From a virus: DNA of 64,000 bases. This document shows positions 2,015-23,829 of this stretch, piece by piece. The position numbers were made by a program, and so were the translations under genes. How positions within the stretch are numbered: the first letter of the stretch is position 1; every line of letters begins with the position of its first letter. The DNA is taken from IMG/VR virus record IMGVR_UViG_3300042691_005581, positions 13,360 to 77,359 of that record; one strand, given 5' to 3'. Under the pieces are notes generated by a model, which was not told the origin of the DNA, did no database searches, and worked only from the letters and a program-made list of their open reading frames with translations.

Positions 2015-3220
2015 ATGCCATATACAATATATAAAACAAACGGTGTGCGATTAACTACTATTGAAGATGGTAAATTAAATTTAGCAACCGATTTACAATT
2101 AGTAGGTAAAAACTATGCTGGATATGGACAGATAGTAAATGATAACTTAGTTAAGTTGTTAGAAAATTTTGCTAATGGAACTGCACCCTCAAAGGCATTG
2201 ACTGGTCAAATATGGTATGATACTCTTAACAAAAAATTAAAAGTTTATAACGGATCTAAATGGAGTCAAGTTTTACCTACCACTATTTCGGCAATTCGTC
2301 CAGTTGATTTATCTGATAATGAATTTTGGTTTGATTCTGTAAACTTTAAATTATATTTAAAACATGGTGATACTTTTAGATTAATAGGTCCTAGCACTAC
2401 AACGTCTGGCCCAGGCTCGGGATCTACACTAACTACTACAGAAGTAGTATCTAGCACAGAAGTTACTTACGACATTATTAAATTAGTAATTGGTGAAGCA
2501 ACAGTTGCAATTATTTCTGATCAAACTTTTGATGTTAAAACAACTGATCCTACTTATGCAGAAACTACTAAAATAGTTAAGGGGATAACGTTAATAGGAG
2601 CAGATCCGTTAACTGGAGTTTCTTCAGACAGCGAATCATTTTTTTGGGGAACTGCTGCCGATTCTGAAAAGTTAGCCGGGCGCCCCTCTACTGATTTTTT
2701 ATTAGCTTCTGCAATTAACGATATTGCAAGTGAGATCACTCAACTAACTGATATTACATTTATAAGTTCGGGATCACCTTCTACACCTGGCATTATTGAA
2801 GGTGCTTGGTCATTAAGTTCTGGATCTACATTAAACGCAACCTATGCCGACTTGGCAGAAAGATACGAAGCAGATGCAGTATACGAACCTGGCACTGTTT
2901 TGGTATTAGGTGGCAATAAGGAAGTAACAATTAGTCAATCTTTAGGTGATACTGCTGTTGCTGGAGTTGTTAGCACTGCACCTGCATTCAAACTGAATTC
3001 TTCTGCAGGCAATGACGAAACGCATCCCTATATTGCATTGACTGGTAGAATACCTTGTAAGGTAATCGGCGAAATTAAAAAGGGAGACCTGCTTATTACC
3101 AGTAATACTCCGGGAGTTGCTACATCAGGTAAGAAGCAGGCTGATCCAAACTCTGTAATTGGAAGAGCAATGCAAGATTACTCATCCAATGAAATTGGAC
3201 TAATAGAAATTAAAGTTTAA
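2015..3220 (+). CDS. Tail fibre/baseplate protein with C-terminal autoproteolytic (peptidase G2/IMC-like) domain
   Basis: LVGKNYAGYG..NLVKLLENFA..GQIWYD N-terminus; YADLAERY..GVVST.P..ALTGRIPCKV.G...KGDLL C-terminal domain. Confidence 0.7.
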   Translation: MPYTIYKTNGVRLTTIEDGKLNLATDLQLVGKNYAGYGQIVNDNLVKLLENFANGTAPSKALTGQIWYDTLNKKLKVYNGSKWSQVLPTTISAIRPVDLSDNEFWFDSVNFKLYLKHGDTFRLIGPSTTTSGPGSGSTLTTTEVVSSTEVTYDIIKLVIGEATVAIISDQTFDVKTTDPTYAETTKIVKGITLIGADPLTGVSSDSESFFWGTAADSEKLAGRPSTDFLLASAINDIASEITQLTDITFISSGSPSTPGIIEGAWSLSSGSTLNATYADLAERYEADAVYEPGTVLVLGGNKEVTISQSLGDTAVAGVVSTAPAFKLNSSAGNDETHPYIALTGRIPCKVIGEIKKGDLLITSNTPGVATSGKKQADPNSVIGRAMQDYSSNEIGLIEIKV

Positions 3221-4101
3221 ACAGCCATGTCTGCCTTAATTGGCTCGTGACTTTGATAATTTTCTAATGTAATATCGGACATTTCGAAGTGTGTGATAAC
3301 ATCGATATCGTCAGTTAATTTAAGTTCGGCCAACGGCAAGGGCTTTCTAGATAGTTGCTCTTTTACTTGCTCTACGTGATTTTCGTAGATGTGCGCATCT
3401 CCAACAGCAATAATTAATTCACCAACTTCTAAATTGCATACTTGTGCAACCATATGAGTGAATAATGCATAAGATGCAATATTAAAAGGCATGCCAAGAA
3501 ACATATCTGCACTACGCTGATACATTTGGCAACTTAGTTTACCGTTGCTAACATAAAATTGAGCCATCATATGACAGGGCGGCAAAGCCATCATGTCTAG
3601 TTCTCCGGGATTCCATGCTGAAATAATATGTCTTCGGCTGTAAGGATCTTCCTTAATTCCGTTAATTAATTCAATCAACTGATCGTGATTTTGTAATACA
3701 ACTTTGTTAATACGTACCAAAGGTTTACGCCATTTGCGCCATTGAACTCCATAAATTCTACCTAGATCGCCGGCGTGTCGCTGAAGTCGTTTTTCTACCC
3801 AATAAGGTGCAGTTGCATTGTCTGACCAAATTGTTTTCTTGTCAGTGTAACGTTCACCGTGTAAAATTTCTCTCAAACGATTCTCATCACCACTGCCTTC
3901 GATGAACCAAAGTAATTCAGATACTACTGCCTTCCATGCGAGTTTTTTAGTAGTAACGGCCGGAAATCCAGCCGCTAAATCAAAACGCATTTGCACTCCA
4001 AATTTACTGATAGTTCCTACACCTGTACGATCTGGCCGGTGCTCTCCGGATTCTAAAATATCTTTTAGTGCATTTAGATAAGCGTGTTCTGGATGTTTCA
4101 T
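3217..4101 (-). CDS. thyA: Thymidylate synthase
   Basis: DRTGVGT, ELLWF, YGVQWR, MALPPCH, YQRSAD, PFNIASY, GDAHIY motifs. Confidence 0.98.
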   Translation of the reverse strand: MKHPEHAYLNALKDILESGEHRPDRTGVGTISKFGVQMRFDLAAGFPAVTTKKLAWKAVVSELLWFIEGSGDENRLREILHGERYTDKKTIWSDNATAPYWVEKRLQRHAGDLGRIYGVQWRKWRKPLVRINKVVLQNHDQLIELINGIKEDPYSRRHIISAWNPGELDMMALPPCHMMAQFYVSNGKLSCQMYQRSADMFLGMPFNIASYALFTHMVAQVCNLEVGELIIAVGDAHIYENHVEQVKEQLSRKPLPLAELKLTDDIDVITHFEMSDITLENYQSHEPIKADMAV

Positions 4102-20474: not shown

Positions 20475-23144
20475 TTATTCGAATGTAAAAAGAGAACCGA
20501 ATGTGTTGGTCTGAGTTGTGGAATCTAAATCCCATTCTAACACACCGATTAAATTATCAATTTTGTTATTGATAATAGTTGCCTCCATCTCTGCGTGGTT
20601 AAATGGTAATTCTTGAAACCATTTAGGCAATCGTAATTCATCGACTGGATATGCTACTGAAGTGTATCCTAACGGATTTTCTTTTACCTTACAAACAATA
20701 ACTTTCATGCCGTCGACAATACCCATCGAGTATTTGTCACCATTCATGCGTTTTAAGGTATTCCAGTTAATAGCTGCTCGAACGTGTCCGGGCATGTTTG
20801 CTTTGCCAGCTTTTACTTCCTTGGCTTGATATTCAGCAATGTTGTTGGCACGTTTTGGACTTCCTTTTTCCCATCCTGGCCGGGCCTTAAATTCAGTTCG
20901 GAATTCGCTAATACGGTCTAGAATTTCTTTTTCTTGAGCACCATTAAGCACCTTAGTTAGAATTTCTGTTAAGAATTCTTGCATAAATTCTGGAGTATCT
21001 GAACGCTTCAAATCTAATCCCATAGCCTTGATCTTGCCCGGTTTGCCATCTAAGTCCTGACGTTTTCCTTCCTTGTCATAGTAAAGAATTGCGTATCTTT
21101 TCTTAGTCATGTAGATACCTTTGATTGCTACAAATTCTCTACCAGCTTTGATAACTTCTCCTCGACTTTTAGGACAGTGAAATGAGTCCAACATAAATTG
21201 AGAAAATGTTCCGTTAACTTCATTAGCGATAGAGTCATATAGTTGAACAACGGTATCTTTGGTCCAAGGAATTTCTCCCTTATCGATTTCTTTCCTTAAG
21301 GAAGTATAAGCACTAAAATATGCAGAGTCAGTGTCACCGTAGATAATAGCCTTACCTACATGATCATATTCTCCAGTAATTACTTCGTTAATTTTTGAAG
21401 CCATGTGTCTAGCAATTGCACGACCGGTAAGAGTGGTAGATTGACCAATACGGTTATCGAAGAAGCGGCATCCTGCATTAAGAATAGCACCATACAAACT
21501 GTTCAAGTTAATTTTCTTAACTAGCTGACGTTTGTCCCAGTATTCTTCTTCAATTTTATTACCGGCAGTAATGGCTGCTTTAAGTTTTGCCTGCATCTCT
21601 TTACGCTCAGCATACCAACGTTTCAACAATCCTGGAATAACACCTTCGTGTTCGTGTGTGAAAATAGTACCGTTGGCACTGAGCATCCAGGGCTTGCCGC
21701 TGTTAAAAATTAACTCAAATATTTGAGCGCCACTCATTACATCAGTTTCGCCGTTTTCCCAATCAATAATGATGTCGTGCGTCTTGTCTTGACTCATTAC
21801 AAATTCATATTCGTTGGCTCCAAATTTGCCTTCCCATGCTGCTGCAAAACTATTTCCCTTGGCAATTTTAGTTTCAATTTCTGCTTTGGTATAGTCCTGA
21901 CGCAACTGTCCAACAATAGTCTCTGGACCCATATTCAATGCACGAATAACTGAAGGATACAAACTGTTAATGTCCATTGAGCCAATCCAATCATGCAGAC
22001 CTTTTTTAGGATATGCAACATATGCACCTGCGGCTTGAGTATCAACAAGGTCGTCCCTGTTCTTACGACTAGGAACAATCATTCCACGGTGATGTGCTTC
22101 ATTTACAATGGCCTGCTCTGTAACTGCTACAGCACCCATAGTGGTCTGTAACAACACTGTACATTCATGTGCTAGTGTATTTGCTAGGTCAATAAATTTT
22201 AATTTATTATCTAGTTTATTCAGCAATGCAGTATCTTGTCTGTTGTATTCGATAAACTTTTTAAAATCATTGTTATACAATTGATCCAATGTGCCTTCGT
22301 AAACAGTTTTACTTTCGCCTACTTCCATTTCTCCAATGGCATCCAATCGGTATGTGTGGCGTTCTTCATAGGTGTATTTGCGGTACAGCTCGAGACTGTC
22401 CAGATGAACACGACCAACCAAATCATAAGTAACAGCCGCTTTTCCATATTTTTCATACTCCCTTTTCTTAGGAAATTGATCCCATAGGCAAAATCTACGA
22501 GTATCTTCTTTGCTCAACACTTTAGTAACTCGATTGACAGTATAAGGCATATCGAATCCTTCACTGTTCCAACCGCTTAAAATATCAGCATCTTGAATTA
22601 AGTTTAGAAATGTATCTAACATGTCTGCTTCGTTATCAAACAGAATTGTGTTAGGAAAATCTTTAATTTGTTCCTGTGCCTGTTCCATAGTTAGTGTCTT
22701 GGGCGGAACTGCAAGACATACTAATGTGTCCAACCATTGTAGATGAACGGCAATGGCAGTAATTGGCATGAAGGCATCATCGGGTGATGCATATCCACGT
22801 TCTGGATCGAAGTCTACCTCAATATCCCAAAACGCTACGTTTAGTTTTGGAGGCTCTTTGCCTAGATAGTTTTCTTCTAATGTACGAAAGACTACGTTAA
22901 TATCACTTTCGAACAGTCGTTGATTACTGTGGATTCTTTGTTCTTTTTGAAATTCTTTGTGGTTTTTACATACCACTTTTGACAGGCTTTCGCCGTGAAT
23001 CGATCTATATTTTCCCTTAGGGTCAGGGTAGTAAAAAATATATCTTGCAGGGTACTCCTGATATATTCTTCCTTTTTTTGGATCCCGTTCGACAATCTTA
23101 ATGACGTCGTTGTCTTTATTCCAAATGGCGTCGACATAACTCAT
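20475..23144 (-). CDS. Family B DNA polymerase
   Basis: Exo DIE, GWNSEGFD, YNRQD; pol DINSLYPS, K..LNSLYG, YGDTDS, KKRY. Confidence 0.98.
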   Translation of the reverse strand: MSYVDAIWNKDNDVIKIVERDPKKGRIYQEYPARYIFYYPDPKGKYRSIHGESLSKVVCKNHKEFQKEQRIHSNQRLFESDINVVFRTLEENYLGKEPPKLNVAFWDIEVDFDPERGYASPDDAFMPITAIAVHLQWLDTLVCLAVPPKTLTMEQAQEQIKDFPNTILFDNEADMLDTFLNLIQDADILSGWNSEGFDMPYTVNRVTKVLSKEDTRRFCLWDQFPKKREYEKYGKAAVTYDLVGRVHLDSLELYRKYTYEERHTYRLDAIGEMEVGESKTVYEGTLDQLYNNDFKKFIEYNRQDTALLNKLDNKLKFIDLANTLAHECTVLLQTTMGAVAVTEQAIVNEAHHRGMIVPSRKNRDDLVDTQAAGAYVAYPKKGLHDWIGSMDINSLYPSVIRALNMGPETIVGQLRQDYTKAEIETKIAKGNSFAAAWEGKFGANEYEFVMSQDKTHDIIIDWENGETDVMSGAQIFELIFNSGKPWMLSANGTIFTHEHEGVIPGLLKRWYAERKEMQAKLKAAITAGNKIEEEYWDKRQLVKKINLNSLYGAILNAGCRFFDNRIGQSTTLTGRAIARHMASKINEVITGEYDHVGKAIIYGDTDSAYFSAYTSLRKEIDKGEIPWTKDTVVQLYDSIANEVNGTFSQFMLDSFHCPKSRGEVIKAGREFVAIKGIYMTKKRYAILYYDKEGKRQDLDGKPGKIKAMGLDLKRSDTPEFMQEFLTEILTKVLNGAQEKEILDRISEFRTEFKARPGWEKGSPKRANNIAEYQAKEVKAGKANMPGHVRAAINWNTLKRMNGDKYSMGIVDGMKVIVCKVKENPLGYTSVAYPVDELRLPKWFQELPFNHAEMEATIINNKIDNLIGVLEWDLDSTTQTNTFGSLFTFE

Positions 23145-23158
23145 ATTTTTTTCTCCTT

Positions 23159-23211
23159 ACCGTTTATGGCCGGCAAACCTTCATAATACGATTTGTGGCT
23201 CGTTAAACCTT
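23159..23211 (-). promoter_or_regulatory. Tandem repeated structured RNA element (candidate pseudoknots) abutting polymerase RBS
   Basis: Two copies of AAGGUUU-(A)-[stem]-GCCAYAAA-[stem'] with different but complementary stems ACGA/UCGU and GCCG/CGGU. Confidence 0.6.
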
Positions 23212-23224
23212 TATTCTTATATAT

Positions 23225-23512
23225 TTACATCAACATTCGAATTAAACCCACAGCATCGATTGTGGTAAGTAAAAGATAATTTGCGAGCATTCCGAAGGAT
23301 CGACGAGTGTAAGCAGCCCAAGCGTACATAGCGCAGCCTGTAATCCAAAGAGGATATAGAATAAGTAGCGGCGGATTTGGGACTGTTGCTGCCATTGTAA
23401 TTGAACAACCAATAGATATCGCCCAAGCAACCAACTCAATAGTGAAGCGAAAAGGATAAGACTTAAAGTCATCTCGAATCCAAGAAAAGATTCCTTGTAG
23501 TATATTGTTCAT
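23225..23512 (-). CDS. Small membrane protein (about 3 TM)
   Basis: Three hydrophobic segments. Confidence 0.7.
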   Translation of the reverse strand: MNNILQGIFSWIRDDFKSYPFRFTIELVAWAISIGCSITMAATVPNPPLLILYPLWITGCAMYAWAAYTRRSFGMLANYLLLTTIDAVGLIRMLM

Positions 23513-23781
23513 TAATCATCGCGTCGGTTAGCGTGACCTGCAATATCAACAATAGTTTCGAGATCGTCAAATTCGCGGAATACTTGATCCCATTGATCTT
23601 TTTGTGCGATTTTAATTGCTTTGCGAATGACACTAGGTTTTACCTCTAGTTCTTCTGCTACTGCTTTGATAGTTTCGTTCAATCCTTCTGTAAGGTCTTG
23701 AATTTCCTGCATAACAGTCATTCCTTCCGAAACGATCTGTTTAATTTTTGCCTGCTCTGGGGCGCCGAATGCTTTGCTCAT
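23512..23781 (-). CDS. Putative dsDNA-binding protein (T4 DsbA-like)
   Basis: Helical 89 aa, IKAVAEELEVKPSVIRKAIKIA; AAGGAG RBS. Confidence 0.55.
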   Translation of the reverse strand: MSKAFGAPEQAKIKQIVSEGMTVMQEIQDLTEGLNETIKAVAEELEVKPSVIRKAIKIAQKDQWDQVFREFDDLETIVDIAGHANRRDD

Positions 23782-23800: not shown

Positions 23801-23829
23801 ATTGTAACGTGCTACTATTTAAATGTCAA
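23801..23829 (-). promoter_or_regulatory. sigma70-type promoter TTGACA-17-TACAAT
   Basis: Consensus; followed by AGTAACAA, as in the 8181 promoter. Confidence 0.8.

What the first reader, a model, noticed from the sequence alone, without database searches (positions are those of the whole stretch)
23151..23227. Tandem covarying mini-pseudoknots immediately before the DNA polymerase RBS
The minus strand reads AAGGUUU-A-ACGA-GCCACAAA-UCGU ...6 nt... AAGGUUU-GCCG-GCCAUAAA-CGGU-AAGGAG-A7-U-AUG. The two units keep AAGGUUU and GCCAYAAA constant, while the stem changes compensatorily (ACGA/UCGU versus GCCG/CGGU), which is internal evidence of selected RNA structure. GGU can pair with the loop GCC to form an H-type pseudoknot, with UUU and AAA strands suited to base triples. 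Known analogues are the T4 gene 43 operator hairpin and gene 32 pseudoknot (autogenous repression). A tandem pair suggests cooperative binding of a protein or nucleotide ligand. A TAAATA lies just upstream (23222-23227).
Basis: partly seen in the sequence, partly recalled or inferred. Interest (0 to 1): 0.75.

Follow-up and report, generated by a model that had tools for sequence, protein, structure and literature searches.

The report
Twin pseudoknot leader of phage polymerase
The short messenger-RNA leader in front of this uncultured giant freshwater phage's DNA polymerase gene folds into two tiny, strongly conserved pseudoknots set against the ribosome-binding site; Rfam does not list them, and they most likely limit how much polymerase is made, as phage T4 does with a simpler hairpin.

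Summary
The 80-nt gap before an 889-aa T4/RB69-type family B polymerase gene holds two units: GGU, 1-3 nt, a 4-7 bp stem, and an 8-nt loop GCC-NN-AA-N. Unit 2 abuts the Shine-Dalgarno sequence.

- **Conservation:** of 192 distinct polymerase leaders from related IMG/VR contigs, 173 keep the strict tandem. Eight inner stem pairs show 14-52 double changes per 100 sequences and no unpaired cell.
- **Pseudoknot:** every one of 19 leaders with a GCU loop has AGU upstream instead of GGU. This state changes at least 3 times on the polymerase tree. The middle pair is invariant and the third pair does not covary.
- **Distribution:** the element occurs once per genome, has no Rfam match, and is absent from cultured relatives (42-50% identity).
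- **Position:** it sits 0-6 nt from the predicted transcript start and stays there when other ORFs are inserted before the polymerase gene.
- **Function:** untested. My estimates are protein-mediated translational operator, probably autogenous, 0.42; 5'-end stabiliser, 0.25; riboswitch, 0.10.

This scan has reported the same motif at least 8 times on other genomes.

The parts
23222..23227 (-). TAAATA promoter-like element (T4-late-like), overlapping the stop codon of the upstream ORF
   Evidence: TAA[A/G]TA ends 8-12 nt (mode 11) before the first G of unit 1 in 122 of 173 distinct leaders, including loci with a different upstream gene. TAAATA lies within 120 nt upstream of 13 of 78 crude gene calls in the window, mostly at -25 to -40. 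Promoter function is inferred.
23188..23211 (-). Unit 1 (pseudoknot 1), -67 to -44 from the AUG. AA 23211-23210; S1 5' strand GGU 23209-23207; L1 UUA 23206-23204; stem ACGA 23203-23200; loop GCCACAAA 23199-23192 (GCC is the S1 3' strand); stem UCGU 23191-23188
   Evidence: Stem pairs: 0 unpaired cells in 100 sequences and 21-52 double changes per pair. S1 outer pair is G:C, or A:U in 19 of 19 GCU-loop leaders.
23182..23187 (-). Linker between the units (AUUAUG), variable in sequence
   Evidence: The distance from loop start to loop start is 28-30 nt in 170 of 173 leaders.
23159..23181 (-). Unit 2 (pseudoknot 2), -37 to -15. AA 23181-23180; GGU 23179-23177; stem GCCG 23174-23171; loop GCCAUAAA 23170-23163; stem CGGU 23162-23159. 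The hairpin can extend to 7 bp by pairing UUU 23177-23175 with AAG 23158-23156 of the Shine-Dalgarno sequence
   Evidence: Stem pairs: 0 unpaired cells in 100 sequences and 2-45 double changes per pair. Unit 2 is the unit kept in every lineage that has the element.
23153..23158 (-). Shine-Dalgarno AAGGAG, directly after the 3' strand of stem 2
   Evidence: The first GGA or GAG lies 4-11 nt after loop 2 in 170 of 173 leaders.
20475..23144 (-). Family B DNA polymerase gene (889 aa), T4/RB69 gp43 type
   Evidence: Pfam PF00136 at 2.3e-37 and PF03104 at 1.5e-19. Best solved relatives are RB69 and T4 gp43, E = 4e-63.
23225..23512 (-). Upstream 95-aa ORF of no known family; not part of the element
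   Evidence: It is replaced by other genes in several relatives that keep the element.

Best explanation
Shown: the polymerase mRNA leader carries two tandem mini H-type pseudoknots. Each reads 5'-GGU, then L1 of 1-3 nt, then a stem strand of 4-7 nt, then GCC, then a 5-nt loop N-N-A-A-N, then the other stem strand. GGU pairs with GCC, and the two helices can stack with no nucleotide between them. The units are held 28-30 nt apart. The first begins 0-6 nt from the predicted transcript start. The second ends at the Shine-Dalgarno sequence.

Inferred: the pair is a translational operator. A protein, most plausibly the gp43-type polymerase itself when it is not engaged on DNA, binds the two pseudoknots. 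It then blocks the 30S subunit at the adjacent Shine-Dalgarno sequence or traps it there, so polymerase synthesis is self-limiting. Where another ORF has been inserted behind the leader, control would reach the polymerase through coupled translation.
For: Structure:
- 173 of 192 distinct polymerase-anchored leaders have the strict tandem.
- 91-95% of cells pair, against 76% in shuffles and 22-44% in slid controls.
- RNAalifold finds the same two hairpins on its own.
- G-U pairs occur on this strand only: 11-22 at one stem-2 pair, plus the U:G of S1. That makes it RNA of the sense strand.
- The S1 outer pair is compensated in 19 of 19 leaders chosen only by their loop. This state needs 6 changes on the polymerase tree, at least 3 of them forced by supported branches.

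Operator reading:
- The element occurs once per genome, always at the head of the polymerase gene or operon.
- Unit 2 always abuts a Shine-Dalgarno sequence and start codon.
- The polymerase is of the T4/RB69 gp43 type. That type is a known autogenous repressor acting through a hairpin about 40 nt upstream plus the ribosome-binding site. Loop bases -UAAC- or -UAAA- matter for that binding (PMC3014915). Here the loops are 8 nt, with AUAA or ACAA in unit 1.
- The fixed spacing suggests that one partner reads both units.
- No conserved helix sequesters the Shine-Dalgarno sequence, so repression would need a trans factor.
Against: - No binding or expression data exist.
- Cultured relatives with 42-50% identical polymerases lack the element.
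- In one pair of polymerases about 86% identical, one has the element directly before the gene and the other has a 204-aa ORF in between.
- When ORFs are inserted, the element stays with the promoter, not with the polymerase ribosome-binding site. That fits a 5'-end element at least as well.
- In one lineage an opposite-strand endonuclease gene separates the element from the polymerase gene.
- The review states that the T4 operator shows no evidence of forming a pseudoknot, and that some T4-related polymerases do not autoregulate.
- Loop positions 4-5 of unit 2 are free, so sequence-specific loop reading could hold for unit 1 only.
Confidence: 0.42

Rival explanations
1. A 5'-terminal protective and organising structure with no dedicated ligand. 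Pseudoknot 1 buries the 5' end of the transcript and slows 5'-end-dependent decay. Pseudoknot 2 keeps the ribosome-binding region from misfolding. Together they give a stable, well-translated polymerase message.
For: - In 13 leaders a TATAAT-like hexamer, 7 of them with TGn, ends 5-8 nt before the GG, which puts the start at or next to S1.
- In 122 leaders TAA[A/G]TA ends 8-12 nt before it.
- The element stays promoter-proximal when a 46-aa ORF, a 204-aa ORF or an endonuclease gene is inserted before the polymerase gene.
- Other TAAATA-preceded genes in the window have leaders of only 25-40 nt.
- T4 gene 32 mRNA, with a 5' pseudoknot 67 nt upstream of its AUG, is the most stable T4 message (PMC3014915).
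Against: - Simple 5' hairpins suffice for protection (established knowledge). That does not explain the fixed 28-30 nt spacing, the invariant loop AA and A-Y of unit 1, or the constant contact of unit 2 with the Shine-Dalgarno sequence.
- An 11/12 match to a sigma-70 promoter about 660 nt upstream could give longer transcripts in which the element is internal.
- No transcript ends were mapped.
Confidence: 0.25
2. A tandem translational riboswitch. Each marginally stable pseudoknot is closed by a small molecule, such as a nucleotide, dNTP or 7-deazapurine precursor, and the closed form hinders the 30S subunit at the adjacent Shine-Dalgarno sequence.
For: - It is a compact H-type pseudoknot with a 3-bp helix and an A-rich loop, next to the Shine-Dalgarno sequence. 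From my knowledge this resembles the layout of preQ1-I and SAM-II aptamers.
- The arrangement is tandem.
- Stem 2 in the window can extend into AAG of the Shine-Dalgarno sequence, competing with S1.
Against: - Rfam gives no match to any riboswitch family even at E up to 10.
- Outside the paired positions only AA and one upstream A are fixed. L1 and loop positions 4-5 of unit 2 vary freely, leaving little for a pocket.
- It is found only with the polymerase gene, never before nucleotide or deazapurine synthesis genes.
- The third S1 pair, which sits at the helix junction where such ligands usually bind, tolerates mismatches.
Confidence: 0.1
3. A transcription-level element in the nascent RNA. 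It would be put-like or nut-like: two promoter-proximal hairpins that modify RNA polymerase so that it reads through into the polymerase gene and the genes behind it.
For: - It is promoter-proximal, made of two structured units, and stays with the promoter when ORFs are inserted downstream.
- From my knowledge, HK022 put RNA is two stem-loops just downstream of promoters.
Against: - Unit 2 is always pressed against a Shine-Dalgarno sequence and start codon, which a transcription element does not need.
- No conserved terminator to be overcome was identified.
- The hairpins are much smaller than put.
Confidence: 0.07
4. A DNA-level site, such as a protein-binding repeat or origin element, rather than an RNA.
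For: It is two direct repeats of a short motif in an intergenic region next to replication genes.
Against: - The stems vary freely in sequence while keeping complementarity.
- G-U pairs (G-T on the sense strand, which would be A-C on the other strand) are common: 11-22 per 100 at one pair, and U:G in S1.
- The element keeps a fixed orientation and position relative to the Shine-Dalgarno sequence.
Confidence: 0.02

Closest known systems
Translational operator of gene 43 (DNA polymerase) of T4, RB69 and RB49
   Same: - It lies in the leader of a gp43-type family B polymerase gene.
- It has a hairpin a few tens of nt upstream of the AUG, running up to the ribosome-binding site.
- It has an 8-nt loop as in T4, by my own reckoning: the review gives 18 bases for the hairpin-loop, and the 5-bp stem is from memory. 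The loop holds a U/C-A-A core, against -UAAC-/-UAAA- in the known operators (PMC3014915).
   Different: - There are two units, not one.
- Each unit has a loop-to-5'-flank pairing (a pseudoknot), whereas the review says there is no evidence of one in T4.
- No sequence homology has been shown.
- Binding by the polymerase is untested.
- Cultured relatives of this polymerase lack the element.
Autoregulatory pseudoknot of T4/T2 gene 32 mRNA
   Same: - It is a compact H-type pseudoknot with coaxially stacked helices.
- It sits at the 5' end of a replication-gene leader. The T4 pseudoknot lies 67 nt upstream of its AUG. Unit 1 here starts at -67.
   Different: - It lies on the polymerase gene, not the SSB gene.
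- S1 has only 3 bp.
- The A/U-rich unstructured tract that gp32 coats is replaced by a second pseudoknot.
preQ1-I and other small H-type pseudoknot riboswitches
   Same: Similar size (about 25-30 nt), an A-rich loop, a marginal short helix and contact with the Shine-Dalgarno sequence. These points come from my own knowledge.
   Different: - There is no Rfam hit.
- The short helix is formed with the 5' flank, not the 3' tail.
- There is no conserved unpaired C or other pocket nucleotides.
- The gene association is different.
Unnamed candidate structured RNAs from IMG/VR (Fremin and Bhatt 2023, PMC10690425)
   Same: That catalogue was mined from the same kind of data, intergenic regions of IMG/VR. 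It reports 879 candidates within 25 bp upstream of genes with known domains, and 12 upstream of gene 32.
   Different: The main text never mentions DNA polymerase, and the supplementary tables are not held. I therefore could not tell whether this element is among the 8495 candidates.

Membership tests
T4-type gene 43 translational operator | Lies in the leader of a gp43-type DNA polymerase gene, with a hairpin upstream and reach into the ribosome-binding site | tested here: met
   The polymerase is closest to RB69 and T4 gp43. Unit 2 spans -37 to -15 and touches the Shine-Dalgarno sequence.
T4-type gene 43 translational operator | Hairpin loop carrying -UAAC-/-UAAA-, with the 3' AC/AA bases important for binding | tested here: inconclusive
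   Unit 1 has an 8-nt loop G-C-C-A-Y-A-A-N, and the AA is invariant. The register and flanking bases differ from T4. Unit 2 has N-N before the AA.
T4-type gene 43 translational operator | Specific binding by the cognate polymerase and autogenous repression | not testable with these tools
   This needs protein-RNA binding and reporter assays.
T4-type gene 43 translational operator | Simple hairpin without a pseudoknot | tested here: not met
   Loop-to-5'-flank pairing is supported by G:C to A:U co-change in 19 of 19 leaders.
T4 gene 32 autoregulatory pseudoknot | H-type pseudoknot at the 5' end of the leader | tested here: met
   Unit 1 lies at -67 to -44, 0-6 nt from the predicted start. The topology comes from covariation.
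T4 gene 32 autoregulatory pseudoknot | On the SSB gene, followed by an unstructured A/U-rich tract with UUAA(A) repeats | tested here: not met
   The gene is a polymerase, and a second pseudoknot fills the space.
Any Rfam 15 family (including preQ1-I/II/III, SAM-II, guanidine-II/III) | Match to the covariance model | tested here: not met
   cmscan at E up to 10 gave only one chance hit, Clostridium-PBP, at 19.6 bits against a gathering score of 94.4.
Riboswitch (general) | Conserved unpaired nucleotides forming a pocket, and association with genes of one pathway across taxa | tested here: not met
   Only AA and one upstream A are fixed outside helices. The element is found solely at the polymerase gene or operon.
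H-type RNA pseudoknot | Two helices in the order S1a-L1-S2a-S1b-L3-S2b, each supported by covariation | tested here: met
   S2 has 8 pairs with many double changes. In S1, one pair covaries, one is invariant, and one is compatible but does not covary.

The most novel reading that the evidence does not exclude
The twin pseudoknots are a new class of tandem ligand-sensing RNA. It would tune DNA polymerase synthesis to a small molecule such as a dNTP or a 7-deazapurine precursor, in a phage that rewrites its own DNA bases.
Probability: 0.1. Interest if true: 0.9.

Novelty: new variant of a known kind. Interest (0 to 1): 0.6.

Why it matters
Self-limiting synthesis of replication proteins through mRNA operators has been studied in T4 and a few close relatives (PMC3014915). 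[quoted passage not shown]

This element is short (about 70 nt), very well supported by covariation, and widespread in uncultured giant freshwater phages. It sits on the polymerase gene itself.

If it is an operator, polymerase autoregulation extends far beyond the T-even phages and uses a different RNA architecture. If it is a 5' stabiliser or a sensor, it is a compact new part for controlling expression. Either way it is easy to test in vitro, because only an 85-nt RNA and one protein are needed.

Tried and rejected
- **Leader peptide:** the window has a mini-ORF ATG AAG GTT TGC CGG CCA TAA (23184-23164). Relatives lack the ATG or the frame, so I rejected it.
- **Further copies (a regulon):** the tandem model finds one hit per genome in five records of 77-230 kb. 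My own single-unit descriptor over 466 kb gave about twice the shuffled background, but no second convincing family-type unit. The only weak candidate lies in G001 near 129040, 370 nt upstream of that leader.
- **RegA-like global repressor:** Pfam PF01818 was not found in the five partial genomes. The search had no positive control and the genomes are 17-65% complete, so this is inconclusive.
- **Cultured relatives:** Phosso, Atu_ph07, CBB, XbC2 and Ecwhy_1 have other leaders, some with terminator-like hairpins, and no motif.
- **RNA evidence:** one freshwater metatranscriptome run holds a 204-nt contig of a relative covering 22974-23179, that is the 5' coding part, the Shine-Dalgarno sequence and most of unit 2. 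Contigs cannot show ends or strand, so nothing follows from it.
- **Middle-pair variants:** a metagenome scan in the GATCA-stem subfamily gave two coding-sequence hits and no motif.
- **Third-pair covariation:** ACC loops gave one GGU and one GGC, the latter a C:A mismatch, so there is no support.
- **Alternative pairing:** loop 1 could pair with the GGU of unit 2. This is less likely because unit 1 keeps its own upstream GGU, which co-varies with its own loop.
- **Papers:** PMC137073 (Petrov and Karam 2002) is not held, and the supplements of PMC10690425 are not held.

Full report
**What is there.** On the minus strand, a 95-aa ORF ends with TAA at 23227-23225. The next ORF starts with ATG at 23144-23142. 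It encodes 889 aa and carries the family B polymerase and exonuclease domains. Its closest solved relatives are the RB69 and T4 gp43 polymerases, at E = 4e-63.

- Unit 1 (23211-23188) is AAGGUUU-A-ACGA-GCCACAAA-UCGU.
- A 6-nt linker follows.
- Unit 2 (23181-23159) is AAGGUUU-GCCG-GCCAUAAA-CGGU.
- Then come AAGGAG, A7U and AUG.

The composite pattern occurs twice in the window against none expected. It occurs nowhere else in the 77-kb virus record that holds the window. The minimum-energy fold alone is unremarkable, with z = -1.46, and it does not recover hairpin 1. The case therefore rests on comparison with relatives.

**Relatives.** IMG/VR holds many hundreds of contigs with a polymerase 52-89% identical. 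I collected polymerase-anchored loci, which are unbiased with respect to the RNA, and obtained 192 distinct leaders.
- 173 carry the strict tandem, with both stems at least 4 contiguous pairs.
- 6 more carry it with a bulge or a mismatch.
- 4-5 keep unit 2 but have a different hairpin in place of unit 1.
- In most of the remainder the element lies further upstream, because something was inserted before the polymerase gene.

A MAFFT alignment of 69 leaders shows 94.9% of cells paired, against 75.6% in shuffles and 22-44% in slid controls. Its covariation score is 0.62 against 0.26, with 0 of 500 shuffles as high.

A model-based alignment of 100 diverse leaders agrees. The four inner pairs of each stem have no unpaired cell, and each has 2-52 sequences changed on both sides. 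RNAalifold predicts the same two hairpins on its own and finds no other conserved helix. In particular, nothing sequesters the Shine-Dalgarno sequence.

G-U pairs are frequent on this strand, so the selected molecule is RNA of the polymerase-sense strand. Rfam 15 has no match even at E up to 10.

**The pseudoknot.** In 346 units, the GG of GGU and the CC of GCC are almost invariant. I tested the pairing without bias by scanning IMG/VR for unit 1 loops that begin GCU, leaving the upstream flank unconstrained. All 19 true instances, in about nine different leader backgrounds, have AGU where the others have GGU. None of about 340 GCC-loop units has AGU.

On a tree of the first 480 polymerase residues, the AGU/GCU state needs 6 changes, at least 3 of them forced by well-supported branches. 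The double change therefore arose or moved several times and never appears half-done.

The middle pair never varies, even in a metagenome scan aimed at variants.

The third pair is U:G in about 300 units, C:G in 35 and U:A in 7. It has three mismatches (U:U twice, C:A once) and no sign of covariation.

The topology is therefore a classical H-type knot with these parts:
- S1: 2-3 bp
- L1: 1-3 nt, variable
- S2: 4-7 bp
- No nucleotide between S2a and S1b
- L3: 5 nt, N-N-A-A-N

The AA is invariant in the unbiased alignment. The last loop base is never C. A C there would pair with the loop's first G and compete with the knot; that explanation is my inference.

**Anatomy around it.** The two loop starts are 28-30 nt apart in 170 of 173 leaders. 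The Shine-Dalgarno sequence begins 0-5 nt after stem 2.

Upstream, TAA[A/G]TA ends 8-12 nt before the first G of S1 in 122 of 173 leaders, including loci whose upstream gene is different. In 13 leaders a TATAAT-like hexamer, seven of them with TGn, ends 5-8 nt before it. If these are promoters, which is inferred, the transcript starts 0-6 nt before pseudoknot 1.

Other TAAATA-preceded genes in the window have leaders of only 25-40 nt. An 11/12 sigma-70-like promoter lies about 660 nt upstream, so longer transcripts are possible.

**Distribution.** The tandem model hits once per genome in five records of 77-230 kb, always at the polymerase gene. My single-unit descriptor found no convincing second copy.

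A motif-only scan of IMG/VR found true instances only in front of polymerase homologues, with three informative exceptions.
- A 46-aa ORF lies between the element and the polymerase gene.
- A 204-aa ORF (phrog_2954) lies between them. In that case the polymerase starts with TTG 14 nt after the inserted ORF's stop.
- An opposite-strand HNH-type endonuclease gene lies between them.

In all three the element stays at the promoter end, pressed against whatever Shine-Dalgarno sequence comes first.

The nearest cultured phages lack the element. These are Sinorhizobium Phosso at 49.7% identity, Agrobacterium Atu_ph07 at 45.6%, and CBB, XbC2 and 121Q-like phages at about 42%.

**How it most likely works.** The structure is shown. 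The function is inferred.

I favour a protein-bound translational operator at 0.42, for these reasons:
- It is a single-copy element on one gene.
- It is always in contact with the ribosome-binding site.
- Its spacing is fixed, as if one partner read both units.
- No cis helix hides the Shine-Dalgarno sequence.
- The gene product belongs to the one polymerase family known to repress its own translation. That repression works through an upstream hairpin plus the ribosome-binding site, and U-A-A-C/A loop bases matter for binding (PMC3014915).

The main rival, at 0.25, is a ligand-free 5'-end stabiliser and organiser. The promoter-proximal position and its persistence after insertions support it, as does the precedent of the very stable T4 gene 32 message with its 5' pseudoknot.

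A riboswitch, at 0.10, is not excluded. However, few unpaired positions are conserved and there is no association with any pathway gene. A put-like transcription element (0.07) and a DNA-level site (0.02) are weaker.

**Known or new.** The element works like the T4 gene 43 operator and looks like the gene 32 pseudoknot, but it is a member of neither. It is doubled and pseudoknotted, it sits on a different gene from gene 32, and binding is untested.

It may be one of 8495 unnamed candidates mined from IMG/VR (PMC10690425). That paper's text does not mention DNA polymerase, and I could not read its tables.

This scan has already reported the same motif at least eight times on other genomes, with the same reading. 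Four points are added here:
- The unbiased test of the S1 pair.
- The negative result for the third pair.
- The placement relative to promoter-like elements.
- The insertion cases, which tie the element to the transcript's 5' end.

Noticed in passing
window 23801-23829 (minus strand): A near-consensus sigma-70 promoter, TTGACA-17-TACAAT (11 of 12), sits before the 89-aa ORF 23512-23781. That ORF matches phrog_12534 and, more weakly, phrog_639 'transcriptional regulator'. In Phosso the gene two places upstream of the polymerase is annotated as a DNA-binding protein.
   Followed up: partly
L141:2898-3512 (also the contigs of L260, L277 and L283): A 204-aa ORF (phrog_2954, labelled ferrochelatase; no Pfam hit) is inserted between the twin-pseudoknot leader and the polymerase gene. 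The polymerase then starts with TTG 14 nt after the ORF's stop, which suggests coupled translation.
   Followed up: partly
L459:1595-2338 (minus strand in the locus): A 247-aa HNH-type endonuclease gene (phrog_681, phrog_559) on the opposite strand sits between the leader and the polymerase gene in one lineage (L330, L338). It looks like a homing-endonuclease insertion at the polymerase start.
   Followed up: partly
L264, L266, L281, L455 (leaders, about 340-400 in each locus); L253; L460:1520-1580: In some lineages unit 1 is replaced by an unrelated hairpin (GUUGC-CUUAA-GCAAC, or GCCC...GGGC), while unit 2 and its contact with the Shine-Dalgarno sequence are kept.
   Followed up: partly
G001:C1 about 129040 (plus strand), 370 nt upstream of that genome's polymerase leader: A single unit-like element: GGU, a 7-bp stem, and a 9-nt loop ACCUAAAAA. 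It is the only other family-like hit in 466 kb scanned and may be chance.
   Followed up: no
L104 (Agrobacterium phage Atu_ph07, MF403008.1 211877-214846): The polymerase of this cultured relative is annotated as two adjacent CDS (locus 601-2298 and 2317-3570). It is either a split gene or an annotation or sequence break.
   Followed up: no
window 23164-23184 (minus strand): A 6-codon mini-ORF (MKVCRP) overlaps unit 2. It is not conserved in relatives.
   Followed up: yes
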